Source of the DNA: a virus
Lineage: Duplodnaviria > Heunggongvirae > Uroviricota > Caudoviricetes
Strand: one strand, 5' to 3'
DNA length: 64,000 nt
IMG/VR virus record: IMGVR_UViG_2713896798_000008
Shown: positions 346 to 62,361 of the stretch, piece by piece
Layout of the letters: each line of letters starts with the position of its first letter
Position numbering within the stretch: position 1 is the stretch's first letter
Notes under the pieces: generated by a model
The model's input: only the letters and a program-made list of their open reading frames with translations
Database searches by the model: none
Told to the model about the DNA's origin: nothing
Position numbers and translations under genes: made by a program

Positions 346-355
346 AAAACAGGAT

Positions 356-1057: not shown

Positions 1058-1063
1058 ACCTCC

Positions 1064-4321: not shown

Positions 4322-4347
4322 CTCACGCGCCAGTCTGAGGGCAAAAT

Positions 4348-4779: not shown

Positions 4780-4798
4780 GCTTTATCATTCCCTCAGC

Positions 4799-5548: not shown

Positions 5549-5555
5549 ATCGTCC

Positions 5556-5954: not shown

Positions 5955-5966
5955 ACACCCTCCCTG

Positions 5967-6590: not shown

Positions 6591-6592
6591 AC

Positions 6593-7193: not shown

Positions 7194-7280
7194 AATGCTG
7201 TTTCTCCGGACAGCCCCTGTGGGGCTGTTTTTCAGGCATAAAAAAAGCCCTTTCGGGCAGTGATTGTGATAACGCGGTTA

Positions 7281-18423: not shown

Positions 18424-18953
18424 GAATCCTCCCGGCCGGGATAATGTTGTGAGTCAGATAAGGGGCGGGCTGAAGTCCGGAAGTTACAGGACAATGACAG
18501 AAGGAAGACTACAGCCCGCAATACGAAAAAGGCCGCGCAGTTGCGCAGCCTTATAAACCCTGGTTAAAATCCACACGATAAAAATGACAATGCAAGTATC
18601 TCATGCTGTTGCCCGAACCTACTCGGGCTTTTTTTGCATGTAAAAAGGCTCCTGCGATGAGGAGCCTGGATATATGCCTAATCTCTGTATACAGCATGAT
18701 GCCGGGTGCCTCCCGGTGAATTCTGCAATGACCAGACAGAATCCGCAACTTGCCTATACAATACGCAACCAAACATCTGTCATTATGCCCCGCCGCCCAG
18801 GGGGATTCATCATGCAGGATTTTTTTAACAAACGCTCAGCATGTCAGGCAACAGTCAACTACCTGAATTGTGAGGCATTTAACATTTCACTGTCCGGTGT
18901 CTTTCCTGTAATAAAAAGCCCGCAAAAGAGAGTCAGGGCAGATAAGTGTGGTG

Positions 18954-19030
18954 TGGCGCGTTGTACTGGATTCGAACCAGTGACCGATTGCTTAGAAGGC
19001 AATTGCTCTGTCCGGCTGAGCTAACAACGC
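18954..19030 (-). tRNA. tRNA-Arg (anticodon UCU)
   Basis: Reverse complement folds as cloverleaf: GCGTTGT acceptor, anticodon loop CTTCTAA, T-loop GGTTCGAATCC, 3' GCCA. Confidence 0.85.
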
Positions 19031-19110
19031 AGAATACCGATAATGGACCGCCACCGGGGACTCCGAATCTCGCACAGGGTGACGTTCTTTCCTGATGAGC
19101 TAGTGGCGGT

Positions 19111-19186
19111 TGGTGGCCCTTGCTGGATTTGAACCAGCGACCTGGCGATTATGAGTCACTCGCTCTCACCACTGAGCTAAAGGGCC
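19111..19186 (-). tRNA. tRNA with CAU anticodon (Ile2/Met type, ileZ-like)
   Basis: Reverse complement GGCCCTTTAGCTCAGTGG...CTCATAA...GGTTCAAATCC...CCACCA; resembles E. coli ileX. Confidence 0.8.
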
Positions 19187-37800: not shown

Positions 37801-38376
37801 CTACGGCAGTGCTGGCCATTCAATATCCGGTGCAGTTGATGTATCAACACGGTTCAGCAACACCCGATACTTTTTCCAGGCTTCCAGCAACAAGGTTTCT
37901 TCCTCCGTTGCGATCTCCAGATCCACAGCATCCTGAAGCGGCGCTATATGCTCACTGGCTATCTGCATCAGGCTGTTTTTTGTTTCTTCCGCCTCCCGGA
38001 TCCGGAACAGTTTTTCTGCTTCCGTATCCTTCACCCAGGCTGTGCCGTTCCACTTCTGATATTCCCCTCCCGGCGATAACCAGGTAACATTTTCCGGTAA
38101 CGGACCGAGTTCAGAAATAAATAACGCGTCGCCGGAAGCCACGTCATAAACCGTTTTACCCCGATGATCTTCAACGAGATGCCACGATGCCTCATCACTG
38201 TTGAAAACAGCCACGAAGCCTGCCGGAATATCTGGCGGTGCAATATCGGTACTGTTTGCTGGCAGACCTGTATGAGGCGGAATATATGCGTCACCTTCAC
38301 CAATAAATTCATTAGTTCCGGCCAGCAGATTATAAATTTTTATGGTCCGTGGTTGTTCACTCATTCTGAATGCCAT
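37801..38376 (-). CDS. Tail fiber assembly protein (Tfa)
   Basis: 191-aa ORF, Tfa-like; adjacent to pin and tail fiber C-terminal fragment. Confidence 0.8.
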
Positions 38377-42025: not shown

Positions 42026-42254
42026 GCAAAAAAGCTCCCGAAGGAGCCTTCATTTTCACTTTTTTAAATCCAACGACAGACGGCTGGCATTTAAGTATTG
42101 TGAAATATTATCAAATGTAATCATCATTGATTTACAAAAGATACATTTTGCCCCGAAAGGATTCATGTCAGAAACATCAAAAGATGATGTTCTATACTGG
42201 GAACCATGACAACACGGGCATCTAAAGTGAATATGGTTTGTAATATTGTCTACC

Positions 42255-42467
42255 TCAAAGCGCCACTACATGAACAGCGGCAGGACCTTTAGGTCCGTTC
42301 TCAATACCAAATTCAACTTCCTGATTCTCAGTTAATGTTTTGAAATCGTTGCTCTGAATTGCTGAGAAATGGACAAACACATCTTTGCTGCCATCTTTCG
42401 GCGTGATGAAACCAAAACCTTTTTCAGGGTTAAACCATTTCACTAAACCAGTCATTTTGTTAGACAT
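42255..42467 (-). CDS. cspI: Cold shock protein CspI-like
   Basis: 70-aa CSD protein [21 protein letters not shown]. Confidence 0.85.
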
Positions 42468-42829
42468 AATTATTACCTTTTGAAGAAATTAGCCCTTGGG
42501 CAGAATGGTCCGAAAAAAAATATCAGAGAGAAAAACCAACAAGGAAATCTCAAGAGGTACAAATAATAAAATTATAACAATGACTGCTTCAGATAAATTT
42601 GTAACAAACCAGAACACCATTAACGCATGATTAACCACCCATAGCAAGGATTACTTTTGTAAAGAAAAACACAGCAATGAAAGAATGGCTTTATTTATTA
42701 ATAAAACGTGTCATTCTGATTAAGACCTTTTATCTTACCCTTAAGATTTCAGGAATTTTGGCTCATGGAAGAGTCCTTTTTATTTAAATTTTACATTCCG
42801 CGATGTAAATGTTCCGATTTAATATTACC

Positions 42830-44775: not shown

Positions 44776-45138
44776 TTGATTTTATTAGTAACAAGTATTT
44801 TTTATATTTTAATAATATATTTAAAGCAGATAATAAAAAACCCGCCTGAGCGGGTTTGAGATTGTGGTGCTTTTTGTGGGAGTCATCCACTTACGCACTT
44901 TGTTTTGCCATGCCAGCAGTTAGCTTCTGCTGTAAAACTATTCATGCAGCAAACCTGCACTTCACCACAATGGTTAGCATACTTTTCCTGATTAAGATTT
45001 TGCCAAATATGCTAGCCATTGTTTCATGTATTGGACCTCCTTACTTTTTATTAAAGAGATCCAATATTCACTACTCTGTCCGTATCTCTACTCAGGCATC
45101 AGCCTTCTTCGTTATCGTATACAGACGAGCGATGAATT

Positions 45139-45354
45139 TTAATCAGTAATGATGACATTTGCTGCTGCAGGACCTTTAGCACCACTCTCTATAGAGAAGG
45201 TAACCTTTTGACCTTCAAATAAGGTTCGATAATTATCATTCTGAATCGCAGAAAAATGCACAAACACATCTTTACTACCATCAACAGGAGAAATAAAGCC
45301 GAAACCTTTATCAGCGTTAAACCATTTTACTAAACCAGTCATTTTATTTGACAT
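45139..45354 (-). CDS. cspB: Cold shock protein CspB-like
   Basis: 71-aa CSD protein. Confidence 0.85.
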
Positions 45355-45654
45355 TCTACATTCCTTAACTTGAGCCTTTCGGCATAAATGGTTTGCATAA
45401 CAGAAACGACTTCGTACTTAATTGGAGAGACTCAAAGAAGGAATAAGTGAATAACACCTGAAATGAGAACTGCTTTAGTAAACTACTTCGTATATCGTCT
45501 GTTCTTCAAACCGACGCAATCATTAACGCATAGTTGAACATATGAAGCAATGTTTATTTTAGACATCCAGCCATCTTCAACCCCATCAAAAAACTATAGC
45601 TTTCTTCAGGAACGTGTGTATAGTGCGCCAAGTTATCAGTATTAAGGAATTTTT

Positions 45655-48918: not shown

Positions 48919-49074
48919 TTACTCCTCAGGTTCGTAAGCTGTGAAGACAGCGACCTCCGTCTGGCCGGTTCGGATTCGTACCTCGCAGAGGTCTTTCCTC
49001 GTTACCAGTGCCGTCACTATGACGGTTAAACAGATGACGATCAGGGCGATTAACATCGCCTTTTGCTGCTTCAT
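48919..49074 (-). CDS. hokD: Hok-family small membrane toxin (HokD/RelF-like)
   Basis: Not in ORF track (51 aa): MKQQKAMLIALIVICLTVIVTALVTRKDLCEVRIRTGQTEVAVFTAYEPEE. Confidence 0.8.
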   Translation of the reverse strand: MKQQKAMLIALIVICLTVIVTALVTRKDLCEVRIRTGQTEVAVFTAYEPEE

Positions 49075-49145
49075 AGCCTGCTTCTCCTGTCAACGCAAAG
49101 CAGAAGTGTCACCTTCGGTGCGAAACAGAGATGTCATGCTTTGGT

Positions 49146-49433
49146 TCAGAGAATGCGTTTGACCGCCTCGCTATATACTTCCGAGCGTTCTCTTTTCCCA
49201 ACAGAAATCACGAAAACGACAACTTTCTCGTCTATAACCTGGTATACAAGGCGATAGCCTGAAGACCGGAGCTTAATCTTGTAACAATCAGGCATACCAC
49301 GGAGCTTGTTTGCTTCAATCCGGGGTGACTCAAGTACTTCAACCAGCTTCTTTTTCAACTGTTCACGTACCGTCGAGCCCAGCTTTCGCCATTCCTTTAG
49401 TGCCCGCTCGTCAAAATCCAGAAAATACGCCAT
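49146..49433 (-). CDS. relE: RelE mRNA interferase toxin
   Basis: 95-aa ORF, RelE-like. Confidence 0.9.
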   Translation of the reverse strand: MAYFLDFDERALKEWRKLGSTVREQLKKKLVEVLESPRIEANKLRGMPDCYKIKLRSSGYRLVYQVIDEKVVVFVISVGKRERSEVYSEAVKRIL

Positions 49434-49672
49434 CAGAGTTCATCCAGCGTCACACGTACTGGCTTAGGATTACGAAGCCGTTCTTTCACTATCTCCACAA
49501 GTTCAGCATCTTCATCACTCAGGAGTGTCTGTTTGAACGGCAAGCGTTCATTGTCAGCGATATACTCGAGCATGAGACGAAGCGCTTCAGAAGGAGTTAC
49601 ACCCATTTTTTCAAGCGCGGCGTAAGAACGCGCTTTAAGTTCATCGTCAATACGCAGGTTAATGCTACCCAT
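49433..49672 (-). CDS. relB: RelB antitoxin
   Basis: 79-aa ORF overlapping relE start. Confidence 0.9.
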   Translation of the reverse strand: MGSINLRIDDELKARSYAALEKMGVTPSEALRLMLEYIADNERLPFKQTLLSDEDAELVEIVKERLRNPKPVRVTLDEL

Positions 49673-49683
49673 GTCTTACACCT

Positions 49684-49709
49684 CTTGTAATTACAAATGT
49701 CATTACAAG
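49684..49709 (-). promoter_or_regulatory. relBE operator (relO): palindrome TTGTAATTACAA plus adjacent TGTCATTACAAG repeat
   Basis: Perfect 12-bp palindrome at 49685-49696 immediately upstream of relB start. Confidence 0.6.
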
Positions 49710-50154
49710 TATCGCACTACAACATGCTTAGGGCAAGTCACGAAGGAAGTCAGAAAGTAGTCGTAAGAACGGTGATCACTGTCCGCTTTGTGCCAGGAGC
49801 AGCCATTGCTAAGTCCATCCTGTATTGTGCAGGTCAGCTCGTTTTTAAAGAGTCCGGCCATCATCTTACTGGTACAGACACCATATACTTTGTGACGGTC
49901 AGGCTACATATGCACAACTCAACTTATTCATCTATTTTTTGCTTTAGCATGTCAGTGTTGCTTTCTCGTCGGCGGGTGAGCGGTGACCTGACCTGTCGAT
50001 AAAGGAACGTAACACGTTTTATGCAACACCCGCATGCGGCAGAAAATTATTGCCGAACGTTTACCCCTGTCAACAAGCTTTACTTTCTGAGGCGCGCCAG
50101 CCCGCGAGGAAAACAATCTGAACATCAAACAATTAATGACACAAGAAATACGAT

Positions 50155-50181
50155 TAAAGATTTTTTTGTGCATGCCGATAG
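50155..50181 (+). promoter_or_regulatory. Sigma28 (FliA)-type promoter TAAAGATT-N11-GCCGATAG upstream of flxA
   Basis: Matches consensus TAAAGTTT-N11-GCCGATAA with correct spacing, 25 bp upstream of ATG at 50207. Confidence 0.6.
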
Positions 50182-50206
50182 TGCTTTTTTAAAAGGAGAA
50201 ATCTAT

Positions 50207-50248
50207 GTCTGTCACAATTCAGGGAAATACCTCAACCGTTATTTCAAA
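50207..50248 (+). pseudogene. flxA: flxA-like gene 5' fragment, truncated by IS66 insertion
   Basis: ATG with GGAG SD encodes MSVTIQGNTSTVIS then runs into IS terminal repeat GTAAGCG. Confidence 0.5.
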
Positions 50249-50285
50249 GTAAGCGTGCAGCAAGAACCGTATTGACGGGGATGTG

Positions 50286-51824
50286 TTATTCAGTCGGCAG
50301 TGCTACGCGCCAGGGGAGCAGTTCGCCGACCCGGTTTATCGGCCAGTCGGCTATGACGTCAAGGACATAGCGGAGGTAGCTTTCTGGCTCCACTCCGTTC
50401 AGTTTGCACGTCCCGATCAGGCTGTACAGCAGCGCTCCCCGCTCTCCTCCATGATCCGAACCGAAGAACAGGTAGTTTTTGCGGCCCAGACTGACCATCC
50501 GCAACGCATTTTCAGCGATGTTATTGTCCGCCTCAGCCCAGCCATCATCTGCATAGTACGTCAGCGCCGGCCACTGGTTCAGGGCGTATGCGAACGCTTT
50601 CGCCAGTTCTGAGTGTCGCGACAGGGTTTTCATCTTTTCACGCAGCCAGCTTTCCAGGGATTTCAGCAGCGGTTTCGTTTTCAACTGACGTTCGGCAAGG
50701 CGCTGCTCCGCCGTCATTCCCCTTATCTCTGCCTCGATGGCGTACAGTTCGCCGATCCGTTTCAGCGCTTCCTCCGTCAGGGCTGACGGGGTGCGAACGT
50801 GCACATCGTGGATTTTACGGCGGGCGTGAGCCCAACAGGCGGCTTCCGTTATCCGGCCATCCCGGTACAGCTCGTTGAACCCGGCGTATGCATCCGCCTG
50901 CAGTACACCACTGAACCCCGCAAGATGGGTCTGCGGATGGATGCCTTTTCTGTCCGGGCTGTAAGCGAACCACACCGCCGGCGCCAGCGTTGACCCGGCG
51001 TTACGGTCGTCACGAACGTAGGTCCATAACCGCCCGGTCTTCGTTTTCTTATTGCCTGGCAACAGCACCGGGACAGGCGTGTCATCAGCATGGAGCTTAC
51101 CGTCAGTCAGCACATAGTCCTGAAGCGCTTCTTCCAGCGGTGACAGTAGCCGGCAGCATGCATCCACCCAGCCCGACAGCAGTGAACGACTCAGCTCCAC
51201 GCCCTGGCGGCCGTACATTTCAGACTGGCGGTACAGCGGGGTGTGCTCTGCATACTTTGAGATCAGCACGCGGGCCAGCAGCCCCGGTCCTGCGATACCC
51301 CGCTCGATGGGCCGTGAAGGCGCGGGGGCCTGCACGATGGCATCGCACTGAGTACAGGCATGCTTTTCACGTACAGTCCGGATAACCCGGAAGACGCTGC
51401 GCATCAACTCCAGCTGTTCGGCGGCATCCTCACCCAGATAGCTCAGTGAGCCTCCACATTCCGGGCAGCATGACGCTGCCGGCAGCAGCCGTTTTTCATC
51501 GCGGGGGAGTGATTCGGGGAACGGTTTGCGGGTGCGGGTTTGACGCAGCGGGCGCTGCACGGCCGGGTCGTCAACCCGACCGGTAAGGGTATCACTTTCT
51601 TTCTGAAGTGCCTTCAGGTCAGCTTCCATCTGTGCGATACGACGGGAGACTTTTTCGGAGCGGCTGCCGAAGTTCATCCGGCGCAGCTTATCCAGCTGTG
51701 CCTGCAGATGGTCTATTTCGCGTTCACGCTCGTTCAGCTTTTCCAGCAGGGCACGGTTCAGCGCCTCCTGTTCGGCAAGGAGACGTTTCAGTGCATTGAT
51801 ATCGTCAGGAAGTGAGCTGCTCAT
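50286..51824 (-). CDS. IS66-family transposase (TnpC)
   Basis: 512-aa ORF with IS66 transposase features. Confidence 0.85.
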
Positions 51825-51872
51825 ACCGGGTATATTACCAGGCTCATTCAGCGTCGACCAGGATAAAGAGGC

Positions 51873-52220
51873 TTACAACATAGTCAGGGACGTAAGCAGT
51901 CTTTTAGGCTGCCGCCAGTCGATACCTTCAAGGAGCATCGCCAGCTGTGCCGGTGTGAGGAACACTTTGCCATCCCGGGCTGACGGCCAGGCGAAGCGGC
52001 CGCGCTCCAGCCGTTTGGTCAGCAGACACAGTCCATCGCCGGTAGACCAGAGGAGCTTTACCTGACTGCCATTACGCCCACGGAAGATAAAAACGTGACC
52101 TGACATCGGATCGTCTTTCAGCGTCGTCTGCACCTTTGCCGCCAGGCCGTTGAAGCCATTTCTCATATCGGTGATACCGGCAACCAGCCAAATTTTTGTC
52201 CCGGAAGGTAACGGGATCAT
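51873..52220 (-). CDS. IS66 TnpB accessory protein
   Basis: 115-aa ORF MIPLPSGTKIWLVAGITDMRNGFNGLA, IS66 orf2 signature. Confidence 0.85.
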   Translation of the reverse strand: MIPLPSGTKIWLVAGITDMRNGFNGLAAKVQTTLKDDPMSGHVFIFRGRNGSQVKLLWSTGDGLCLLTKRLERGRFAWPSARDGKVFLTPAQLAMLLEGIDWRQPKRLLTSLTML

Positions 52221-52618
52221 CGCTTCAGTTCCTGTATCAGCAGAGTCAGGAGCTTTTCGCTGACATTGCCATTGAAGCGGAGCGTCCCGTGCCGGAACGT
52301 TACCTCACAGCTGATACTGAGGGTTTTCGGGTCCTCTGCGAGCGATTCTGGCTGTTCGGCAGCTGCATCGAGAGTCACAGGAAGTAGCTGGGGGCTCTCT
52401 GAAGAAGGTAATAGCAGCTTTCCCTCGCGCCATTGTTGTCGCCATTTGAACAACAGATTGGCGTTAATGCCATTTTCAAGAGCAAGTTTTGAGATGGATA
52501 TCCCGGGTTCACAGGAGGCAGCAACGAGCTGCTGTTTAAATTCGGGAGGATAATTAGGGCTGCCTTTTCGCCTGCCGGGAGTCACATTTTTCTGCATATC
52601 TGACACTTTGGTTCCCAC
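52217..52618 (-). CDS. IS66 OrfA (HTH accessory protein)
   Basis: 133-aa ORF, overlaps tnpB start. Confidence 0.8.
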   Translation of the reverse strand: MGTKVSDMQKNVTPGRRKGSPNYPPEFKQQLVAASCEPGISISKLALENGINANLLFKWRQQWREGKLLLPSSESPQLLPVTLDAAAEQPESLAEDPKTLSISCEVTFRHGTLRFNGNVSEKLLTLLIQELKR

Positions 52619-52685
52619 TACTTATTTGGTGGACACCACTTTGTCTAATTCGTCAGATTCTGACCAGACGGTTCAGGCTGTACGC

Positions 52686-54248
52686 TTACAGATCAACTTT
52701 CCAGGGCAACAGATCGCGTACCCGGTTTGCCGGCCAGTCCTGGATATGTTCAATGACGTAACGCAGCCACTTTTCTGGCTCCACATTGTTCAGACGGCAT
52801 GTGCCGATCAGCGAGTACAACACCGCCGCATGTTCACCACCGCTGTCGGAACCCGCGAACATCCAGTTTTTCCGGCCTACGGCCACTCCCCGTAAGGCGT
52901 TCTCTGCGATGTTGTTGTCGATTTCCACCCAGCCATTACTGCAGTACACGTTCAGTGCATCCCACTGTTTCAGCAGGTATGCGAACGCTTTTGCCGTATC
53001 TGAGTGACGCGACAGTGTTTTCATCTGTTGCTGTATCCAGTCATACAGTGACTGCATCAGTGGCGCGGCTCTGGCTTTTCTTGCCGCCAGACGCTGTTCT
53101 GCTGAACAGCCCCGGACCTCTGCCTCGATGGCATACAGTTCACCGATACGCTGCAGGGCTTCCGTGGTGATGTAGGTGGGCGCTCTTGCATGCACATCGT
53201 GGATTTTTCTCCGGGCATGAGCCATACACGCGGCTTCCGTTATTCTGCCGGATTCGTATAACGCCCGGTAACCACCGTAAGCATCGGCCTGAAGCACACC
53301 GCTGTAACCGGCCAGGTGATTTTGTGGATGGATACCTTTCCGGTCCGGACTGTACGCGAACCAGACCGCCGGGGGCATCTGTGAACCGGCGTTACGGTCA
53401 TCACGGACGTAGACCCACAGCCGGGCTGTCCGGGTTTTACCGCTGCCCGGCTCCTGGACCGGGACGGGGATATCATCAGCATGGACTTTACCGGGCATCA
53501 GCACATACTGGCGCAGGACGTCATACAGCGGCTCCAGCAGTTCAGCAACAGCACCTGTCCAGCGCCCCAGTGTGGCACGGCTCAGCTCCACTCCCTGACG
53601 ACGGTATATTTCTGACTGGCGGTATAACGGCAGATGGTCTGCATATTTCCCGGTGACAACATGGGCCAGAAGCCCCGCTCCGGCATAACTGCGTGCAATG
53701 GGTTTTGAAGGTACTGGTGCCTGCACGATATGGTCGCACCGGCAACAGGCCTGTTTCGGACGTTGTGTTTCGATAACCTTAAAGGCGCTGCTGATAAGCT
53801 CCAGTTGCTCTGACACATCACATCCCAGAGAACTGAGTTCACCACCACAGGCAGGACAGCATTCCTCTTCCGGCCGGATAACCCGGGTTTCACGGGGAAG
53901 TGAGGCCGGTAACGGTTTACGGGCTGAAGACTGGCGCAGGGCGGATGGCAGTACCGGGTCATATTGCTCACCCAGCGTTTCCGCCATTTCTTCCTGAAGT
54001 GCGCTGATTCGCTCCTGTGCTTCCTGTATCTGCCGTTCGGTTTTTGCACGAAGTTTTTCTGAGCTTTTACCGAACTGCATACGTTGCAGTTTCGCAACCA
54101 GCGCCTTCAGCCGGTTGATTTCGGAAGCATAAGCCGCCACCCGCTGTGAGAGCAGGCGGTTGTATTCAGCCATCTGGCGGATGGTGTCCTGTTGCGTCTG
54201 CAACAGTGCCCGCAGGCGGGCGTTCTCATGAGCAAGTGAGGTGTCCAT
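52686..54248 (-). CDS. IS66-family transposase (TnpC), second element
   Basis: 520-aa ORF, roughly 60 percent identical to copy 1; C-terminus a few residues shorter. Confidence 0.8.
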
Positions 54249-54267
54249 ATCCTCACTTTACAACGGG

Positions 54268-54615
54268 TTATATGCGGATTCCAGCGCGTTCCGTTCGTTT
54301 CGGGTGCTTCCAGTTGATACCTTCAAGAAGCATGGATAACTGAGCCGGAGTAAGGTGCACCTTGCCGTCACGGGTGACTGGCCAGACGAAGCGGCCCCGC
54401 TCCAGGCGTTTGGTGAAGAGGCACAGTCCGTCACTGTCAGCCCACAACACTTTTATCTGGTCACCCCGGCGTCCGCGGAAGATGAACAGGTGTCCGGAGA
54501 ACGGGTCATCCTTCAGGACGTTCTGAACTTTTGATGCCAGGCCGTTAAAGCCATTTCGCATATCGGTGATACCTGCAACCAGCCAGATACGCGAACCTGC
54601 AGGGAGAGATATCAT
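54268..54615 (-). CDS. IS66 TnpB accessory protein, second element
   Basis: 115-aa ORF MISLPAGSRIWLVAGITDMRNGFNGLA. Confidence 0.85.
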   Translation of the reverse strand: MISLPAGSRIWLVAGITDMRNGFNGLASKVQNVLKDDPFSGHLFIFRGRRGDQIKVLWADSDGLCLFTKRLERGRFVWPVTRDGKVHLTPAQLSMLLEGINWKHPKRTERAGIRI

Positions 54616-55292
54616 CAGTGGCTGCTCCCTTTTATTTCGCGGATAAGTGTCTGTAATAACGCCGGCGTCAGTTTACCTTTAAGCCTGAGAGTTCCGGCCG
54701 GCAGAACCAGCTCACAACACAGACTGTCGGACGGTGTATTTATCTGCTCTGGTTCCTGTGCGGGGGCCGGGATTTTATTATCCGGCTCCGGCGTTAACGT
54801 CACGGGAAGCAGTGCCGGCATATTTTTTCCGGAAGGCAGCAGGCCACCTTTCCGGTATTGATGGCGCCAGTTGAAGAGCAGGTTATCGTTGATTCCGTTT
54901 TCCCGGGCGATCTGCGCCACACAGGCTCCGGGCTGTAGTGACTGCTCCACTAAGGCGATTTTAAACTCATAAGGGAAGTTGGGCCGCCGGGGACGTTTTT
55001 TTACCACGGGGGCTTCGGATATAACGGTGCTTTCAGGACGTACGACTGGTACCGTGGAAAATTGTCCGTAAAGGCAGGCATCAAGTTCCTGCTCCGACAT
55101 GCCTGCGGGCAAAGGCCACGAAAGGCCAGCTCTCCGAAAGCGCACGAACATACTACAAACTGTTGATTTTGGTACACTCAGGCGACGCCCGGCCACAACC
55201 CGGGGTAAATGTTCTTCAAAGTGAAGACGTAAAGCTTCAGTGATCCAGGTCCGGTGTTTCATACGATAGTGTCCATTAAAAATGATGGACAT
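54615..55292 (-). CDS. IS66 OrfA-like protein with N-terminal extension (start uncertain)
   Basis: 225-aa track ORF; conserved OrfA core begins near KKRPRRPNFPYEFK. Confidence 0.6.
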   Translation of the reverse strand: MSIIFNGHYRMKHRTWITEALRLHFEEHLPRVVAGRRLSVPKSTVCSMFVRFRRAGLSWPLPAGMSEQELDACLYGQFSTVPVVRPESTVISEAPVVKKRPRRPNFPYEFKIALVEQSLQPGACVAQIARENGINDNLLFNWRHQYRKGGLLPSGKNMPALLPVTLTPEPDNKIPAPAQEPEQINTPSDSLCCELVLPAGTLRLKGKLTPALLQTLIREIKGSSH

Positions 55293-55345
55293 TATTTTTG
55301 TAGAGCCGGAGGAAACAGACCAGACGGTTTAAATGAGCCGGTTAC

Positions 55346-55591
55346 AGACAAATTCAGGTGCTGACTGAAAAGCTTGGGAAAATCTCATCGGAAGAGGGGA
55401 TGACGACACAGCAGAAAAAAGAAATGGCTGCATTGGTACAGAAGCAAATTGAAAGCCTCTGGGCTCAACTGGAGCAGTTGTTAAGGCAGCAGGCAGAGAA
55501 AAAGAATGAAGACGCGACAGTTCAGCCTGATAAAAAAGAAGAGAAAAAAGACGATACAAATACCGCTGGCACCATTGATATTTACGTCTAA
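55346..55591 (+). pseudogene. flxA: flxA-like gene 3' fragment
   Basis: In-frame continuation ...RQIQVLTEKLGKISSEEGMTTQQKKEMAAL... immediately after IS terminus; terminator follows. Confidence 0.5.
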
Positions 55592-55606
55592 GTGACAGCC
55601 GTATTG

Positions 55607-55628
55607 TGGCCCTCATCGGGCCACTTTT
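55607..55628 (+). terminator. Intrinsic terminator after flxA
   Basis: TGGCCC-TCATC-GGGCCA hairpin followed by CTTTT. Confidence 0.5.
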
Positions 55629-56027
55629 CGCCATCAGCCTTTTCTTTAAAGACATATTATCTTTGTATCATTTCTGATAGTTAACATTACAAGATATAAG
55701 TAATGGACGCACTCCCAATTAGTCTATTTAAATCGCCACGAGTTTAACTGACAACCCATGATCAATTATGAATTGCAACTATTTCTGTAGTCACTTTTGT
55801 GGGGACAGTCCACAAAACTGCCAACTTCCGCTTCTTGCTCTTAGCGGACATTAGCATAGGCTATTTACCATAACGCCTCATTACGCGCACCGCCCAGACT
55901 GACTCAGCGCGTTTCTGGCATATCCCCGGTAAAACAAGTAACAAACCACCCGAAAATGAACACCAGAAACGCGACTTAAGGATCTACCCTATGAATGGAT
56001 ATGCACTCAACCGAATCGATCTTGGTT

Positions 56028-57341
56028 TCAATCTTTTTTATCGGGATCAGGCTTCTTTTTAGGTAACTTCGGGGGCTTAACTTGCTGATGACTTTGCGTT
56101 CGGCGCGTAAGCCAGGGATGGTCAGCTTTAGGTTTAACATAGTATTTTGAGCGTAAATCAATACGGGCATTATCCACTCGTTCATGGACACTCTTTTCAT
56201 CATCCAGTGGTATAGGCTCCGGGCCATCAACATACTTTTCCCAGCCCAGCGCTTTCCCGTCATACAGAACGTTAATTTCACCGTCAAAGTTCTCGCATAC
56301 AGTAACAACCGAATGCCTAAGTCGATATCCCCGGCCCTCACTGCGTACCTGAAACGCACTGCTTTTGTACTGGAAAGTGAGATTTTTAGACAGAACGCGC
56401 TTCGCCTGTAGGCTGAAGATATAACCCAGTTCCTCTTCAGAATGGTGCACATCAAGATGAGCATTATCAGTAGTACGAGGCGACGTAGCGAACCGGTTGT
56501 TATAGGCTTCAATAAAGGTCGGCAACCATGCATTTGCTGTTTCAATATCACTGATATTCTGAAGCCGCATTTCTTTGACCAGCCTGTCCTGTAGTGTCTG
56601 ATTGGCGCGCTCTACCCGCCCTTTTGCCTGCGGGCTGTTGGCATGGATTGGCTCGATGCCCAGTGTCTTTATCGCACGAGTGAACTGGGTCAGCTCACCT
56701 TCCCGCTCTGGGTTATTTACCCTGAATATACTGTGTCTATCAGAGTAGAGAGCGAGCGGTACGCCATGATCATTAAGGTAACCCCGGAGGGTTTCCATGT
56801 AAGCCCGGGTTGTTTCAGCAGGCACAAAACGCAACGCCATCAACGCACTGGTGGCATCATCAATGAAAACGATCAGTGTACATCTGGGGCCTCGATTTTC
56901 AAACCAGTCATGAGGTGAGCCATCAATCTGGATCAGTTCACCGTAAGATGGTCGTCGCATGCGGCGTTGATATATACGGGCAATTTTACGACGGCGTTCA
57001 CGCCATAACCCCTCTTCTATCATCCACTTTCTGAGAGTTTCAACGGATAAAGATAAACCGTGTATCTCGCGCAATTTTTCGCACGCAAACGTAGGTCCAA
57101 AATCAGCGTAACGGCCTTTGAGGAGTGAAATTACTGTTGCTCTGAATTCAGTAGAAAAGGAATTATTAGGACGCTTTCCACGTCGGTGGGAAACCAGACC
57201 AGAAGGCCCTTCATTTCTATACCGTTGCACCAGACGTTTAACCTGCCGAATAGAAATGCCAATGCGTGCCGCAGCTTGTTCCTGAATAATCTGAAGTCGG
57301 TGGAGTTCCTTATGACTCATCGTAACAGTCTCTTTGATCAT
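56028..57341 (-). CDS. DDE transposase with integrase-core domain (IS481-like family, single ORF)
   Basis: 437-aa ORF: N-terminal HTH, DDE triad context (IQIDGS, LYSDRHS, SPQAKGRVERAN). Confidence 0.6.
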   Translation of the reverse strand: MIKETVTMSHKELHRLQIIQEQAAARIGISIRQVKRLVQRYRNEGPSGLVSHRRGKRPNNSFSTEFRATVISLLKGRYADFGPTFACEKLREIHGLSLSVETLRKWMIEEGLWRERRRKIARIYQRRMRRPSYGELIQIDGSPHDWFENRGPRCTLIVFIDDATSALMALRFVPAETTRAYMETLRGYLNDHGVPLALYSDRHSIFRVNNPEREGELTQFTRAIKTLGIEPIHANSPQAKGRVERANQTLQDRLVKEMRLQNISDIETANAWLPTFIEAYNNRFATSPRTTDNAHLDVHHSEEELGYIFSLQAKRVLSKNLTFQYKSSAFQVRSEGRGYRLRHSVVTVCENFDGEINVLYDGKALGWEKYVDGPEPIPLDDEKSVHERVDNARIDLRSKYYVKPKADHPWLTRRTQSHQQVKPPKLPKKKPDPDKKD

Positions 57342-57781
57342 GAAAAATCCCCCAGAGAATTGTCTGGGGACATTTTAGAATGGTTCAAAGGGGACATTAC
57401 AGCTTGGTGTTAACAATAGCCTGCTTCTCCGTGCCTTTCGGCACGTAAGAGGCTAACCTACATGTGTCTAGCATGAAATTGGCCTCAGATTAATGTTAAG
57501 CGTCTTGCAGGACGCGTAATGTTAACTGGGGCTTTTCTCTATCTGCCGTTGGTGTCCATGCCCGAGGCAGATAGCCTCAAGCACCCGCAGTCATTCTACT
57601 TAACTAAGATTTCCCCGCAAACCGTTTTTGTCCAGCACAGTAAATATCCAACTAAACCAATGGAGTTCGCTGTATTTACCGCCAGTATTCAATGCACATG
57701 ACCGCCATGAACACCCCTAAAAAAAGGGCATTTATATATCCAAATATTAATATCAAAACATCAACTTTTTCCATATACCTT

Positions 57782-57790
57782 GCTGTGAAG
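57782..57790. repeat. IS1 target-site duplication GCTGTGAAG (left copy)
   Basis: Identical 9-mer at 58559-58567 directly flanking the other IS1 end. Confidence 0.85.
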
Positions 57791-57845
57791 GGTGATGCTG
57801 CCAACTTACTGATTTAGTGTATGATGGTGTTTTTGAGGTGCTCCA

Positions 57846-58121
57846 GTGGCTTCTGTTTCTATCAGCTGTCCCTCCTGTTCAGCTACTGACGGGGTGGTGC
57901 GTAACGGCAAAAGCATCGCCGGACATCAGCGCTATCTCTGCTCTCACTGCCGTAAAACATGGCAACTGCAGTTCACTTACACCGCTTCTCAACCCGGTAC
58001 GCACCAGAAAATCATTGATATGGCCATGAATGGCGTTGGATGCCGGGCAACTGCCCGCATTATGGGCGTTGGCCTCAACACGATTTTACGTCACTTAAAA
58101 AACTCAGGCCGCAGTCGGTAA
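57846..58121 (+). CDS. insA: IS1 InsA
   Basis: 91-aa [26 protein letters not shown]. Confidence 0.9.
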
Positions 58122-58543
58122 CCTCGCGCATACAGCCGGGCAGTGACGTCATCGTCTGCGCGGAAATGGACGAACAGTGGGGCTATGTCGGGGCTAAATC
58201 GCGCCAGCGCTGGCTGTTTTACGCGTATGACAGGCTCCGGAAGACGGTTGTTGCGCACGTATTCGGTGAACGCACTATGGCGACGCTGGGGCGTCTTATG
58301 AGCCTGCTGTCACCCTTTGACGTGGTGATATGGATGACGGATGGCTGGCCGCTGTATGAATCCCGCCTGAAGGGAAAGCTGCACGTAATCAGCAAGCGAT
58401 ATACGCAGCGAATTGAGCGGCATAACCTGAATCTGAGGCAGCACCTGGCACGGCTGGGACGGAAGTCGCTGTCGTTCTCAAAATCGGTGGAGCTGCATGA
58501 CAAAGTCATCGGGCATTATCTGAACATAAAACACTATCAATAA
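58040..58543 (+). CDS. insB: IS1 InsB (expressed as InsAB' by frameshift)
   Basis: 167-aa ORF in -1 frame overlapping insA. Confidence 0.85.
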
Positions 58544-58558
58544 GTTGGAGTCATTACC

Positions 58559-58567
58559 GCTGTGAAG
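58559..58567. repeat. IS1 target-site duplication GCTGTGAAG (right copy)
   Basis: Identical 9-mer at 57782-57790. Confidence 0.85.
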
Positions 58568-58749
58568 ATGATGGGCATACATGATGCGAACAACCAGAAC
58601 GCAACAAACAAAAACTGCAATGCGTTTTTCATTATTCCTCCTACAATCAATGTGCAATTACATTTAAACACACCTCAATTTGGCCGGACATATAAATATC
58701 TAAACCAGAAAAAATCACTTACATAGCGTTACAAACTCTTTAGTCTAAA

Positions 58750-59784: not shown

Positions 59785-60141
59785 TTAAAAAATCAGAACG
59801 CCGTGCGGCCTCAACACCCGAAAGGCTTCTTTAAATCTCTGTCGCGAATCATCACGCCAGGCATCTTTATTCAGCCGTCCATATTTCTTTCCCATCCAGG
59901 CGTTATCACCAACACTCTCAAGATGCGGAGGGTCTAATACAACCATCGAAAAAGATGCGTCTGCAAATGATAATGCACGAAAATCTGCGATAATGTCAGG
60001 GCTGATAATCAAGCGTCTCCCATTGCGTAATGTGTATCCTTCTTTTCTGATATCGCTGAATATCGCCCGTTCGTCAGACTTATCGAACCAGAACATGCGG
60101 CTGCCACAGCACATATCAAGAATGGTTGCCGGTGCACTCAC
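59785..60141 (-). CDS. Short methyltransferase-like protein (possibly truncated)
   Basis: DMCCGSRMFWF (AdoMet motif I-like) and LDPPH (motif IV-like) in 118 aa. Confidence 0.45.
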   Translation of the reverse strand: MSAPATILDMCCGSRMFWFDKSDERAIFSDIRKEGYTLRNGRRLIISPDIIADFRALSFADASFSMVVLDPPHLESVGDNAWMGKKYGRLNKDAWRDDSRQRFKEAFRVLRPHGVLIF

Positions 60142-60404
60142 TGCGCCACGTCCTGAAAATTACCCTGATAGAAAGCCAGTATGCGCTGCATAACTTCGCT
60201 CTTCCGGCACTCGCGACAGATTATGTTTAGGCGACTGTCGTAGCGACGTATTTCTCCGTCAGGTGATGACCAGATAAGGTCCGGATCAACCACAGCAGGT
60301 TTCTTCACCTTTGCCCTCGAGAGTTTTTTGCGGGCGTTTTGCCAGTCCTTACGCGCCTGTTCAGAGGGGAATAACCCGTATCCGGAGCTTAAGTTGCACG
60401 CCAT
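60138..60404 (-). CDS. Hypothetical protein translationally coupled to MTase-like gene
   Basis: 88-aa ORF with ATGA overlap to downstream gene. Confidence 0.4.
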   Translation of the reverse strand: MACNLSSGYGLFPSEQARKDWQNARKKLSRAKVKKPAVVDPDLIWSSPDGEIRRYDSRLNIICRECRKSEVMQRILAFYQGNFQDVAQ

Positions 60405-60462
60405 TGGGTGGGTTAAGCATAAATGTATTCCTGGTGCTAAATGGCCCGAAATTCAGGCAGAG

Positions 60463-62361
60463 ATGCGCATCTGGAAAAAACGTCGCGAAGGTGAACGCAA
60501 GGAAACCGGAAAATACACGTCTGTTGTTGATCTCGCCCGCGCCAGAGCCAATCAACAGTACACTGAAAATTCAACAGGAAAAATCAGCCCGGTCATTGCT
60601 GCCATTCATCGCGAATACAAGCAGACATGGAAAACACTGGATGACGAACTGGCCTACGCTCTCTGGCCTAGTGATGTGGATGCCGGAAACATTGACGGCA
60701 GCATCCATCGCTGGGCAAAAAAAGAAGTTATCGACAACGACCGCGAAGACTGGAAGCGTATCTCGGCATCAATGCGCAAACAGCCTGATGCCCTTCGCTA
60801 CGACCGCCAAACTATTTTTGGCCTTGTCCGTGAGCGTCCGATCGACATTCACAAAGATCCCGTAGCACTGAACAAATATATCTGCGAATACCTGACGACA
60901 AAGGGCGTGTTTGAGAATGAAGAAACAGACCTGGGCACTGTTGATGTTCTCCAGTCATCAGAAACACAAACTGATGCAGTGGAAACTGAGGTATCTGATA
61001 TCCCAAAAAATGAAACCGCGCCGGAAGCTGAACCATCTGTAGAGCGTGAGGGGCCGTTCTATTTCCTCTTCGCAGATAAGGACGGAGAAAAATACGGTCG
61101 CGCAAACAAACTCTCTGGTCTGGATAAGGCACTGGCTGCTGGCGCCACTGAAATCACAAAAGAAGAATATTTTGCCCGAAAAAATGGCACATACACGGGC
61201 TTACCGCAAAATGTAGATACCGCTGAAGATTCAGAACAACCAGAGCCGATAAAAGTTACCGCTGACGAAGTAAACAAAATTATGCAGGCAGCCAATATCA
61301 GCCAGCCTGACGCCGATAAGTTGCTTGCTGCATCACGTGGTGAATTTGTTGAAGGGATTAGTGACCCGAATGATCCGAAATGGGTTAAGGGGCTCCAGAC
61401 CCGCGATTCTGTGAACCAGAACCAGCATGAATCGGAACGGAACTACCAAAAAGCGGAACAAAACAGTCCAAATGCGTTACAAAACGAGCCAGAAACGAAA
61501 CAGCCTGAACCAGTAGCGCAACAGGAAGTGGAAAAAGTCTGCACCGCCTGCGGTCAGACCGGCGGCGGCAACTGCCCTGATTGTGGCGCGGTGATGGGCG
61601 ACGCAACATACCAAGAAACATTCGATGAAGAGTATCAGGTTGAAGTTCAGGAAGATGATCCGGAGGAAATGGAAGGCGCTGAACATCCACACAAGGAGAA
61701 CACTGGCGGCAATCAGCATCACAATAGCGATAATGAAACTGGCGAGACGGCAGATCACCCAATTAAGGTGAACGGTCATCACGAAATCACATCCACCAGC
61801 AGGACGTGTGACCATCTAATGATCGACCTTGAAACCATGGGAAAAAATCCTGATGCCCCGATCATCTCAATAGGTGCAATATTTTTCGATCCGCAAACCG
61901 GAGATATGGGACCGGAATTTAGTAAGACTATCGATCTGGAAACTGCTGGCGGAGTCATTGATCGGGACACCATTAAATGGTGGCTTAAGCAATCACGCGA
62001 AGCGCAATCTGCCATTATGACCGATGAAATCCCGTTAGATGATGCACTGTTACAATTGCGAGAATTTATCGACGAAAACTCCGGTGAATTTTTTGTTCAG
62101 GTTTGGGGAAATGGAGCCAACTTCGACAACACGATTTTGCGCCGTTCATACGAACGGCAGGGGATCCCCTGCCCGTGGCGTTACTACAACGATCGCGATG
62201 TACGCACAATCGTTGAGCTGGGGAAAGCCATAGACTTCGATGCCAGAACGGCTATTCCATTCGAAGGTGAGCGCCATAATGCACTTGATGACGCCCGTTA
62301 CCAGGCAAAATACGTTTCAGTTATCTGGCAAAAACTGATCCCGAGTCAGGCTGATTCTTAA
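60463..62361 (+). CDS. Exonuclease: distinct N-terminal region plus zinc ribbon and DEDDh 3'-5' exonuclease C-domain shared with 31630-34092
   Basis: Start taken at Met after the minus-strand gene; C-terminal 340 aa nearly identical to prophage A copy. Confidence 0.65.
   Translation: MRIWKKRREGERKETGKYTSVVDLARARANQQYTENSTGKISPVIAAIHREYKQTWKTLDDELAYALWPSDVDAGNIDGSIHRWAKKEVIDNDREDWKRISASMRKQPDALRYDRQTIFGLVRERPIDIHKDPVALNKYICEYLTTKGVFENEETDLGTVDVLQSSETQTDAVETEVSDIPKNETAPEAEPSVEREGPFYFLFADKDGEKYGRANKLSGLDKALAAGATEITKEEYFARKNGTYTGLPQNVDTAEDSEQPEPIKVTADEVNKIMQAANISQPDADKLLAASRGEFVEGISDPNDPKWVKGLQTRDSVNQNQHESERNYQKAEQNSPNALQNEPETKQPEPVAQQEVEKVCTACGQTGGGNCPDCGAVMGDATYQETFDEEYQVEVQEDDPEEMEGAEHPHKENTGGNQHHNSDNETGETADHPIKVNGHHEITSTSRTCDHLMIDLETMGKNPDAPIISIGAIFFDPQTGDMGPEFSKTIDLETAGGVIDRDTIKWWLKQSREAQSAIMTDEIPLDDALLQLREFIDENSGEFFVQVWGNGANFDNTILRRSYERQGIPCPWRYYNDRDVRTIVELGKAIDFDARTAIPFEGERHNALDDARYQAKYVSVIWQKLIPSQADS

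What the first reader, a model, noticed from the sequence alone, without database searches (positions are those of the whole stretch)
57782..58650. IS1 with perfect 9-bp target duplication inserted into the 3' end of a small hydrophobic peptide gene
GCTGTGAAG flanks both ends of IS1. Removing IS1 and one duplication restores a 31-codon minus-strand ORF with a strong GGAGG Shine-Dalgarno sequence (MKNALQFLFVAFWLFASCMPIIFTAKVYGKS). The insertion replaces only the last six residues. Small membrane peptides of this kind are often type I toxins or membrane-active prophage factors.
Basis: seen in the sequence. Interest (0 to 1): 0.4.

Follow-up and report, generated by a model that had tools for sequence, protein, structure and literature searches.

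The report
IS1 splits a prophage small-protein gene
An ordinary IS1 jumping gene has landed in the middle (not the end) of a real but uncharacterised 59-residue membrane-protein gene in a decayed E. coli prophage; the true toxin-antitoxin locus is next door, not this gene.

Summary
The IS1 and its 9-bp duplication are real. An intact 768-bp IS1A lies at 57791-58558, flanked by GCTGTGAAG, and many E. coli genomes carry the exact empty site.

Excision restores a 59-codon minus-strand ORF (58632->57676), not 31 codons. IS1 sits at codons 22-25, so the protein loses its second helix and 34 residues, not six.

The 59-aa ORF looks like a genuine gene. A second E. coli lineage encodes a gap-free 59-aa homologue at 39% identity. 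Only this frame is open in both lineages, and dN/dS is about 0.24. It is predicted to form two helices. It matches no Pfam, NCBIfam, PHROGs or PADLOC family, and PGAP leaves it unannotated.

It is a discrete AT-rich module just upstream of a hok/sok locus in Qin-type lambdoid prophages. At least six independent IS1 insertions hit this stretch.

I found no antisense RNA, promoter or toxin homology for the ORF. The hok mRNA leader begins 90 nt downstream. Its toxin gene hokD was displaced 8.3 kb by a transposon-like element carrying relBE, which is already known in outline.

Verdict: a routine IS1 knockout of an uncharacterised prophage small membrane protein. Modest interest.

The parts
57782..57790 (.). 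Left copy of the 9-bp IS1 target-site duplication GCTGTGAAG (equals ORF nt 66-74 on the minus strand)
   Evidence: Exact repeat located. The empty site with a single copy is found in many genomes.
57791..58558 (+). Intact IS1A, 768 bp. IRL 57791-57813, insA 57846-58121, insB' frame to 58543, IRR 58536-58558. Transposase is on the strand opposite to the small ORF.
   Evidence: 100% identity over 768 bp to IS1A copies. ORFs. PGAP annotates the identical copy in SCPM-O-B-9504 as an IS1A transposase with programmed frameshift.
58559..58567 (.). Right copy of the 9-bp target-site duplication GCTGTGAAG
58559..58632 (-). 5' fragment of the 59-codon small-protein gene (nt 1-74; ATG 58632-58630). It encodes helix 1, MKNALQFLFVAFWLFASCMPIIFTA. 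As it stands it reads on into IS1 to a stop at 58537-58539, giving a 31-aa product ending VMTPTY.
58637..58641 (-). Shine-Dalgarno GGAGG, 4 nt before the ATG
   Evidence: Read directly. One polymorphic site (A/G at -6) lies in this stretch among relatives, and E. coli 55989 reads GGGGG here.
57676..57781 (-). 3' fragment of the small-protein gene (nt 75-180). It encodes the loop RYMEKVD, helix 2 and the C-terminal IEYWR, then stop TAA at 57678-57676.
   Evidence: It is in frame with the 5' fragment only after correct excision.
57593..57620 (-). Candidate hok promoter, TTGCGG-16 nt-TAGAAT, 6 nt upstream of the hok mRNA 5' end. It lies downstream of the small ORF stop.
   Evidence: Read. It is my inference and fell below the threshold of the consensus scanner. 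The stretch is invariant among relatives and served as the search pattern.
57415..57586 (-). hok mRNA leader (Rfam RF01794 'sok' model, which is written in hok-sense). It contains a mok ORF truncated to 25 aa (57474-57397). The model's final AUG (hok start) reads AUU here.
   Evidence: Full-length hit, 104 bits against a gathering score of 59. In relatives the same leader runs straight into hokD.
49088..57415 (-). Context, not part of the IS1 event: a transposon-like element inserted exactly at the hok start codon. It has a 15-bp direct repeat GGAGAAGCAGGCTAT (57430-57416 and 49087-49073) and TGT...ACA ends with 22/30 imperfect inverted repeats. It carries an ISNCY/IS1202-type transposase (56298-57341), ydfW, a flxA remnant, ydfV, relB and relE, plus two later IS66-family insertions.
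   Evidence: repeats; P about 1e-5 per random 30-mer. (annotation). (HTH and rve domains).
48919..49074 (-). hokD (relF) coding sequence, the toxin ORF that belongs to the leader at 57586-57416 and is now 8.3 kb away behind relBE
   Evidence: translation MKQQKAMLIALIVICLTVIVTALVTRKDLCEVRIRTGQTEVAVFTAYEPEE. (annotation).

Best explanation
Shown: an intact IS1A transposed into codons 22-25 of a 59-codon gene in a heavily decayed Qin-type lambdoid prophage and made the usual 9-bp duplication. The insertion separates helix 1 from the loop and helix 2. It leaves a 31-aa stub (25 native residues plus 6 IS1-encoded), which is most likely a null allele.

Shown by comparison: the interrupted gene is a real protein-coding gene for a two-helix (hairpin) small membrane protein. 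It is restricted to E. coli and Shigella prophages and prophage remnants. It forms a discrete AT-rich module of about 340 bp between the last gene of the replication/nin-like region and a hok/sok locus. It is present in most, but not all, hok-bearing relatives.

Inferred: the AT-richness makes the stretch a regional hot spot for IS1, which explains the recurrent independent hits without invoking selection.

Inferred, low confidence: the protein is made from the prophage's rightward early transcript and inserts into the inner membrane. There it acts as an accessory ('moron'-type) factor, for example in exclusion of other phages or modulation of a host membrane protein. It is probably not a type I toxin. 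In this window its loss has no evident consequence, because the prophage is already riddled with IS elements and deletions.

The confidence given applies to the structural claims (IS1 event, 59-codon gene, its reality as a coding gene, its context). The functional proposal alone would rate about 0.3.
For: - IS1 identity, ends and duplication.
- Natural empty sites at 100% identity.
- Correct 59-aa restoration. That exact protein occurs on at least 1000 contigs as 'hypothetical protein'.
- Coding evidence:
  - A second lineage (P0037/P0042) is 59 aa, gap-free and 39% identical, at E = 2e-8 against 1.84 billion proteins.
  - Identity by codon position is 58/69/47%, and Nei-Gojobori dN/dS is about 0.24. 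Homology stops about 22 nt past the stop codon.
  - Only the sense frame is open in both lineages.
  - When the same 74 substitutions are placed at random, start, open frame and stop survive in 0.3% of trials. Amino-acid identity reaches the observed value in 0.4%.
- In a sample chosen by the hok promoter rather than by the ORF, 103 of 115 loci have an intact 59-aa ORF with no frameshifts.
- The other 12 lack the whole module.
- GC is 33-39% over the module, against 45-50% nearby.
- AlphaFold2 gives two helices, 2-26 and 28-58, at mean pLDDT 73. Hydropathy shows two hydrophobic blocks in both lineages.
- Independent IS1 insertions lie at ORF nt 66-74, 88-96 and 94-102, and at -121..-112 and -95..-81 upstream. 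Two further read-through products end in IS1 sequence (P0038 and P0048).
- Prophage decay: two IS66-family elements, a truncated ISNCY transposase and fused gene fragments.
Against: - There is no direct evidence of expression. K-12 MG1655 lacks this stretch, which probably keeps the ORF out of published K-12 small-protein work; none of it was consulted here. Sequence-string searches of the paper library found nothing.
- Within the Qin-type lineage all five segregating sites in the ORF are non-synonymous.
- Protein databases hold frameshifted variants at the T7 run. Present-day constraint could therefore be weak.
- The lower polymorphism of the ORF relative to its flanks comes from a sample pre-selected for protein similarity, so it is biased.
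- No promoter or terminator was found for the module, so the 'moron' label is incomplete.
- The functional proposal rests on location and topology alone.
Confidence: 0.8

Rival explanations
1. One reading: a 31-codon peptide gene whose last six codons were replaced by IS1, the peptide being a type I toxin or similar membrane-active factor with a nearby antisense RNA.
For: A small hydrophobic ORF with a strong SD sits in a prophage. A genuine type I locus (the hok leader) is adjacent. The ORF is hit repeatedly by IS1, which could reflect counter-selection of a toxic product.
Against: - The 31-codon reconstruction is a one-base frame slip.
- There are no promoter-like or terminator-like signals on the opposite strand of the ORF.
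- There is no Rfam family over the ORF.
- There is no complementarity to the Sok/hok leader above shuffled controls.
- There are no hits to toxin families in Pfam or NCBIfam.
- The ORF is intact in 103 of 115 unbiased loci, and in a remnant where the neighbouring hok has decayed. That is not what one expects of an unguarded toxin.
- Two transmembrane helices in 59 aa is atypical for known type I toxins (my knowledge).
Confidence: 0.08
2. The 59-codon ORF is not a gene. It is a chance open frame in a T-rich, AT-rich spacer upstream of hok, and IS1 simply hit non-coding DNA.
For: - PGAP never annotates it.
- Some phage records annotate the opposite strand instead, as 'hornerin'.
- No family or function is known.
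- All within-lineage differences are non-synonymous.
- Frameshift variants exist.
- T-rich DNA automatically translates as hydrophobic peptide.
Against: - The gap-free 59-aa homologue at 39% identity has conserved motifs (W13, SC, PII, FG, NAL, E-WR).
- Its flanks cannot be aligned.
- The opposite-strand frame has two stops in lineage 2.
- Random placement of the observed substitutions keeps the ORF in only 0.3% of trials.
- The codon-position pattern and dN/dS of 0.24 fit a coding sequence.
Confidence: 0.1
3. The small protein is a functional partner of the hok/sok module, for example a membrane-level modulator or second effector, and travels with it as one cassette.
For: The ORF lies directly upstream of hok/sok in all lineage-1 loci examined. 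The 39%-diverged lineage 2 ORF is also followed by a fragment of a hok coding sequence, 62 nt at 81% identity. The linkage is therefore old.
Against: - hok/sok of the same type occurs without the module in 12 of 115 loci.
- In lineage 2 the ORF persists intact in over 1000 genomes after hok was destroyed.
- In the window and in K-12-type Qin relatives it persists beside a leader with no toxin ORF.
- Adjacency in a phage mosaic is weak evidence of joint function.
Confidence: 0.1

Closest known systems
IS1 (IS1A) insertion sequences of E. coli
   Same: 768 bp, characteristic imperfect terminal repeats, insA/insB' with programmed frameshift, 9-bp target duplication, preference for AT-rich targets. 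It is 100% identical to IS1A.
   Different: Nothing. This is a standard copy. The exact junction is shared only with three complete genomes, SCPM-O-B-9504, -12142 and -7615.
[quoted passage not shown]
   Same: The neighbouring 172 nt match the Rfam hok-leader/sok model over its full length. In relatives the leader continues into a HokD protein identical to the K-12 one.
   Different: The small ORF is not part of that transcript. It ends 90 nt before the hok mRNA 5' end. It shares no sequence with Hok or Mok and has two predicted helices rather than one. In the window the leader has lost its toxin ORF.
Phage 'morons' and small prophage membrane proteins of the early region (my comparison from general knowledge)
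   Same: It is a discrete presence/absence module between conserved phage genes. It is compositionally distinct (AT-rich), encodes a small hydrophobic product, is dispensable, and is kept in cryptic prophages.
   Different: No promoter or terminator of its own was detected. No homology to any described exclusion, holin or toxin protein was found.
Class II holins and pinholins (two-helix phage membrane proteins; my knowledge)
   Same: About 60-70 aa with two transmembrane helices.
   Different: The ORF lies outside the lysis cassette. It has no charged C-terminal tail (it ends EYWR) and no dual-start motif. It has no PHROGs or Pfam holin hit.

Membership tests
IS1 | Length about 768 bp with about 23-bp imperfect terminal inverted repeats | tested here: met
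   Exactly 768 bp. The ends are GGTGATGCTGCCAACTTACTGAT and GGTAATGACTCCAACTTATTGAT.
IS1 | insA and insB' reading frames joined by a programmed -1 frameshift | tested here: met
   The 91-aa insA and the overlapping 167-aa insB' frame are present. The identical copy is annotated 'programmed frameshift'.
IS1 | 9-bp (sometimes 8-14 bp) target-site duplication and an existing empty site | tested here: met
   GCTGTGAAG on both sides. Empty sites are 767/767 identical.
IS1 | Near-identity to a reference IS1 isoform | tested here: met
   100% over 768 bp to copies annotated IS1A.
Type I toxin-antitoxin (the small ORF as toxin) | Small (<60 aa) hydrophobic membrane peptide | tested here: met
   59 aa, GRAVY 1.27, two hydrophobic blocks. 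Two helices in the AF2 model.
Type I toxin-antitoxin (the small ORF as toxin) | Antisense or divergent small RNA overlapping the toxin mRNA | tested here: not met
   No promoter-like or terminator-like site on the opposite strand. No Rfam hit over the ORF at E <= 1. No complementarity with the Sok/hok leader beyond shuffles. Consensus scans are insensitive, so absence is not proven.
Type I toxin-antitoxin (the small ORF as toxin) | Homology to a described toxin family (Hok, Ldr, Ibs, ShoB, TisB, DinQ, ZorO, Fst and others) | tested here: not met
   No hits in Pfam, NCBIfam or PADLOC at E <= 1, apart from one sub-threshold symporter-subunit match for lineage 2.
Type I toxin-antitoxin (the small ORF as toxin) | Toxicity on expression, relieved by the RNA | not testable with these tools
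   Needs an induction experiment.
hok/sok locus (the neighbouring element) | hok mRNA leader with the tac/ucb/mok-TIR/Sok-target structure | tested here: met
   RF01794 positions 1-157 of 157, 104 bits against a gathering score of 59, at 57586-57415.
hok/sok locus (the neighbouring element) | Contiguous mok and hok reading frames after the leader | tested here: not met
   In the window mok is cut to 25 aa and the hok start reads ATT. hokD lies at 49074-48919 behind the inserted element. The feature is met in relatives.
Phage moron | Discrete insertion between conserved phage genes, present in some relatives and absent in others | tested here: met
   103 loci have the roughly 340-bp module and 12 lack it, with the same flanks in both.
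Phage moron | Composition distinct from the surrounding phage DNA | tested here: met
   GC 33-39% against 45-50%.
Phage moron | Own promoter and terminator allowing expression from the repressed prophage | tested here: not met
   None found by the consensus scans. The scans are strict and also miss the likely hok promoter.
Class II holin / pinholin | Two TM helices plus a charged C-terminal tail, encoded in the lysis cassette | tested here: not met
   Two helices are present. However, the C-terminus is only EYWR, the gene lies between the replication genes and Q, and there is no PHROGs or Pfam holin hit.

The most novel reading that the evidence does not exclude
The 59-aa two-helix protein is an unrecognised membrane effector that has travelled with prophage hok/sok loci since before the two lineages diverged to 39% identity. 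It would be either a second toxin or a membrane-level modulator of Hok. The recurrent IS1 and frameshift hits would then reflect selection against its activity in lysogens, rather than mere AT-richness.
Probability: 0.1. Interest if true: 0.55.

Novelty: new member of a known kind. Interest (0 to 1): 0.25.

Why it matters
Practical value:
- It corrects a mis-reconstructed peptide.
- It identifies the true disrupted gene.
- It flags a conserved small membrane-protein gene that NCBI's pipeline leaves unannotated. The gene is in about 29% (lineage 1) and 19% (lineage 2) of complete E. coli genomes.

K-12 MG1655 has deleted this stretch, so work based on that strain cannot detect the gene. A strain such as ATCC 8739 would allow a simple test of expression and function.

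The locus also shows how one AT-rich 200-bp stretch collects independent IS1 insertions.

The type I toxin that a reader might look for here is the adjacent hok/sok remnant. None of this changes how IS1, prophages or toxin-antitoxin systems are understood.

Tried and rejected
- Family searches with both lineages against Pfam, PHROGs, NCBIfam and PADLOC gave nothing usable.
- A Foldseek search of the AF2 hairpin against BFVD gave only E > 2. That is uninformative, as expected for a 59-aa hairpin.
- I searched for relatives outside E. coli and Shigella in three ways. These were HMMER over 1.84 billion representatives, a profile search and a scan of GTDB species representatives. They found only the two lineages and Shigella flexneri.
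- IMG/VR holds just one lineage-2 locus.
- Literature searches for the peptide strings found no paper.
- A Rfam scan of the lineage-2 locus found no hok leader. Plain blastn then found the hok coding fragment.
- E. coli 55989 first looked like a diverged allele suitable for dN/dS. Its ORF is in fact nearly identical, and only the upstream DNA differs.
- The comparison of polymorphism in the ORF and its flanks was first spoiled by IS1-bearing loci. After cleaning, it still rests on a sample pre-selected for protein similarity, so I do not rely on it.
- I rejected the opposite-strand 83-85-aa ORF, annotated 'hornerin' in two phage records. It has stops in lineage 2.

Full report
**1. The observation**

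Window 57791-58558 is a 768-bp element with the IS1 terminal repeats. It carries insA (57846-58121) and the overlapping insB' frame, which ends at 58543. It is 100% identical over its full length to copies annotated IS1A in many E. coli genomes.

GCTGTGAAG abuts both ends, at 57782-57790 and 58559-58567. I removed the IS1 and one repeat copy and searched 767 bases around the site. Many E. coli chromosomes match 767/767 in a single piece, for example ATCC 8739. The insertion and its duplication are therefore real, and the empty site exists.

The exact junction occurs in only three complete genomes: SCPM-O-B-9504, -12142 and -7615. Their annotation matches the window's layout.

**2. The reconstruction error**

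The restored minus strand reads ...ATC ATC TTC ACA GCA AGG TAT ATG GAA AAA GTT GAT.... KVYGKS* is the +2 frame.

The true restored ORF has 59 codons: MKNALQFLFVAFWLFASCMPIIFTARYMEKVDVLILIFGYINALFLGVFMAVMCIEYWR.
- ATG at 58632-58630.
- GGAGG at 58641-58637.
- Stop at 57678-57676.

The duplication is ORF nt 66-74, so IS1 sits at codons 22-25. It cuts off 34 residues. The present product would be 31 aa: 25 native residues plus VMTPTY read from the IS1 end.

**3. Is the 59-codon ORF a gene?**

The exact protein is on at least 1000 contigs as 'hypothetical protein' or 'membrane protein'. The DNA is in 1567 of 5426 complete E. coli genomes, always at 95% identity or more. PGAP annotates nothing there.

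Near-identical copies say little about selection. The useful result came from the exhaustive HMMER search. It found a second lineage:
- Its sequence is MRKILMYLCISIWIVISCVPIILTSEYLTEASIMALMFGHANALCIGVFISIIYIECWR (P0037/P0042).
- It is also 59 aa, gap-free and 39% identical, at E = 2e-8 over 1.84 billion proteins.
- It is in 1045 of 5426 E. coli genomes and is again unannotated.
- In strain NC101 it lies in a prophage remnant next to ttcA, the Rac attachment region.

Comparison of the two lineages:
- Nucleotide identity is 59% overall, and 58/69/47% at codon positions 1/2/3.
- Nei-Gojobori dN/dS is about 0.24, with dS saturated.
- Alignable DNA ends about 22 nt after the stop codon.
- Only the sense frame is open in both lineages. 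The opposite-strand ORF that two phage records call 'hornerin' has two stops in lineage 2.
- I placed the 74 observed substitutions at random sites. Start, open frame and stop all survived in 0.3% of trials. Amino-acid identity reached the observed value in 0.4% of trials.

I then sampled IMG/VR by a 24-nt hok-promoter pattern, which is independent of the ORF. Of 115 loci, 103 have an intact 59-aa ORF with no frameshifts.

Caveats:
- Within lineage 1 all five segregating ORF sites are non-synonymous, though conservative: A16V, V31I, I37M, Y40H and L44I.
- Databases hold frameshifted variants at a T7 run.

On balance I take the ORF to be a genuine gene, with probability about 0.85-0.9. Its present-day constraint is uncertain.

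**4. What kind of protein**

Hydropathy shows two hydrophobic blocks separated by a charged loop (RYMEKVD) in both lineages. AlphaFold2, run on a nine-sequence alignment, gives helices 2-26 and 28-58 at mean pLDDT 73.

There is no hit in Pfam, PHROGs, NCBIfam or PADLOC. A fold search against viral models gave nothing significant. No relatives were found outside E. coli and Shigella.

**5. Where it sits**

The window is a Qin-type lambdoid prophage. Its gene order on the minus strand is:
- an O-like replication gene;
- a DUF977 gene;
- a methyltransferase gene;
- DUF7167;
- a frameshifted hypothetical gene;
- the small ORF;
- then, after the hok/sok locus and the inserted element described in sections 6 and 8, hokD, rem, ydfU and the Q antiterminator.

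K-12 MG1655 has deleted the stretch between ydfW and ydfX that would hold the ORF. That probably explains why the ORF does not appear in K-12 small-protein work; I did not consult those catalogues.

In intact relatives the order is upstream gene, about 230 nt, small ORF, 88 nt, hok/sok, rem.

Twelve of the 115 promoter-sampled loci lack the whole AT-rich module of about 340 bp. They join the upstream gene to the hok promoter through about 75 nt. The module has 33-39% GC, against 45-50% around it. It therefore behaves as a discrete, dispensable, moron-like cassette. No promoter or terminator of its own was detected.

The lineage-2 ORF is followed, 55 nt after its stop, by a 62-nt fragment that is 81% identical to the middle of the hokD coding sequence. 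The ORF-hok adjacency therefore predates the split of the two lineages. In lineage 2 the ORF has outlived hok.

**6. The type I toxin question**

Rfam's RF01794 ('sok') matches 57586-57415 on the minus strand over its full length, at 104 bits against a gathering score of 59. The model's consensus starts at the hok mRNA 5' end and finishes at the hok SD and AUG. It is therefore written in hok-sense, which I judge from the alignment and from my memory of the R1 hok mRNA.

A plausible promoter, TTGCGG-16-TAGAAT, precedes it at 57620-57593. The small ORF ends 90 nt upstream of this transcript, so it is not part of it.

For the small ORF itself I found:
- no antisense promoter or terminator;
- no RNA family;
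- no complementarity to the hok leader or Sok strand above shuffled controls;
- no toxin homology.

The type I toxin reading of the ORF is not supported. It is also not strictly excluded without experiments.

**7. Recurrent IS1 hits**

Mapping the IS1 junctions in other genomes gives independent insertions at these positions:
- ORF nt 88-96, in E. coli 55989 (TSD ATCAATTTT);
- ORF nt 94-102, in strain MB57;
- -121..-112 upstream, in strain 25-07338, in the opposite orientation;
- -95..-81 upstream, in ETEC4089, an IS1B copy.

Two database proteins are also read-throughs into IS1 ends:
- P0038 reads ...MPII-GDAANLLI.
- P0048, from lineage 2, reads ...IECW-GDAANLLI.

That makes at least six events besides the window's. 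I attribute them to IS1's known preference for AT-rich DNA, which is inference. Counter-selection of the product is a minority alternative.

**8. Side finding: the displaced hokD**

In the window the hok leader ends ...GGAGAAGCAGGCTAT and then reads TGTTAACACC.... In intact relatives the same 15-mer is followed by G AAG CAG..., which is HokD.

The 15-mer recurs at 49087-49073, immediately before the hokD ATG at 49074. The DNA between the two copies, 49088-57415, has these features:
- It has TGT...ACA ends.
- It has 22/30 matching inverted repeats, with P about 1e-5 per random 30-mer.
- It encodes an ISNCY-type transposase with HTH and rve domains.
- It also carries ydfW, flxA, ydfV, relB and relE.

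These traits fit the IS1202 family as described in PMC10132070: TGT/ACA ends, imperfect terminal repeats and a subgroup with TSDs longer than 15 bp.

This explains why hokD (relF) follows relBE and lacks its own mok/sok leader. Integration of relBE into hokD has already been reported (PMC6379469, citing Ramisetty and Santhosh 2016). I did not check whether the repeats and duplication were described there. In this window two IS66-family elements have since inserted into the flxA region.

**9. Verdict**

- The IS1 event is textbook.
- The real disrupted gene is a conserved, unannotated, uncharacterised two-helix small protein of E. coli prophages.
- The toxin-antitoxin element is the neighbour.
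- Interest is modest. The small protein is a reasonable candidate for an expression and function test, but nothing here is surprising to a specialist.

Noticed in passing
window 57415-57586 (minus strand): Full-length Rfam RF01794 'sok' hit. It is really the hok mRNA leader in sense orientation. It has a 25-aa truncated mok (57474-57397) and no hok ORF after it, so it is an orphaned type I TA leader 90 nt downstream of the small ORF.
   Followed up: yes
window 49073-57430: A transposon-like element is bounded by a 15-bp direct repeat (GGAGAAGCAGGCTAT) and 22/30 imperfect inverted repeats with TGT...ACA ends. It is inserted exactly at the hok start codon. It carries an ISNCY/IS1202-type transposase, ydfW, flxA, ydfV and relBE, and it places hokD behind relE. 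relBE integration into hokD is published in outline (PMC6379469). I did not verify whether the repeat and duplication details are.
   Followed up: partly
window about 50200-55650: Two IS66-family elements (ISEc22-like, transposase 50286-51824; ISCro1-like, transposase 52686-54248) are inserted back to back in the flxA region inside the relBE-carrying element. Only a flxA fragment is left (55346-55591).
   Followed up: partly
L091 (E. coli 55989), L093 (MB57), L002 (25-07338), L092 (ETEC4089); proteins P0038, P0048: At least six further independent IS1 insertions lie within or just upstream of the same AT-rich small ORF, one of them in the lineage-2 paralogue. This is a local IS1 hot spot of about 225 bp.
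   Followed up: partly
L086 829-1124; L087 (NC101) about 7100-7450: A 39%-identical 59-aa paralogue of the small ORF sits in a prophage remnant between ttcA and uspF (the Rac attachment region) in about 19% of complete E. coli genomes. PGAP does not annotate it. It is followed by a 62-nt fragment of a hok coding sequence.
   Followed up: partly
L005 3907-4158 and L004 3907-4158 (opposite strand of the small ORF): Two GenBank phage records annotate the antisense 83-aa ORF (one as 'hornerin') instead of the 59-aa gene. That frame has stops in the paralogous lineage and is probably spurious.
   Followed up: yes
L101, L109, L143 and nine other IMG/VR loci: These are variants of the same prophage region in which the whole small-ORF module of about 340 bp is absent. 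The upstream gene is joined to the hok promoter through about 75 nt.
   Followed up: partly
window about 60138-62361: A DUF977 gene fragment abuts a truncated 3'-5' exonuclease gene on the opposite strand. The immunity, dicB and dicF region expected here in Qin-type prophages is missing, so a large deletion or inversion has occurred.
   Followed up: no
window 18576-19186, 37835-38033, 42228-42613, 45123-45515: Other Rfam hits at gathering score: AgvB (18576-18635, +), STnc100 (18636-18844, -), two tRNAs (18957-19030 and 19114-19186, -), IS009 (37835-38033, -) and two cspA-type 5' UTR thermoregulators (42228-42613 and 45123-45515, -). These suggest at least two lambdoid prophage regions in the window.
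   Followed up: no
restored small ORF nt 130-136 (window about 57720-57726): A T7 homopolymer run inside the ORF is the site of several frameshifted database variants (P0019, P0022, P0024, P0025). None appeared in the 103 unbiased IMG/VR loci, so some may be sequencing or assembly errors.
   Followed up: partly
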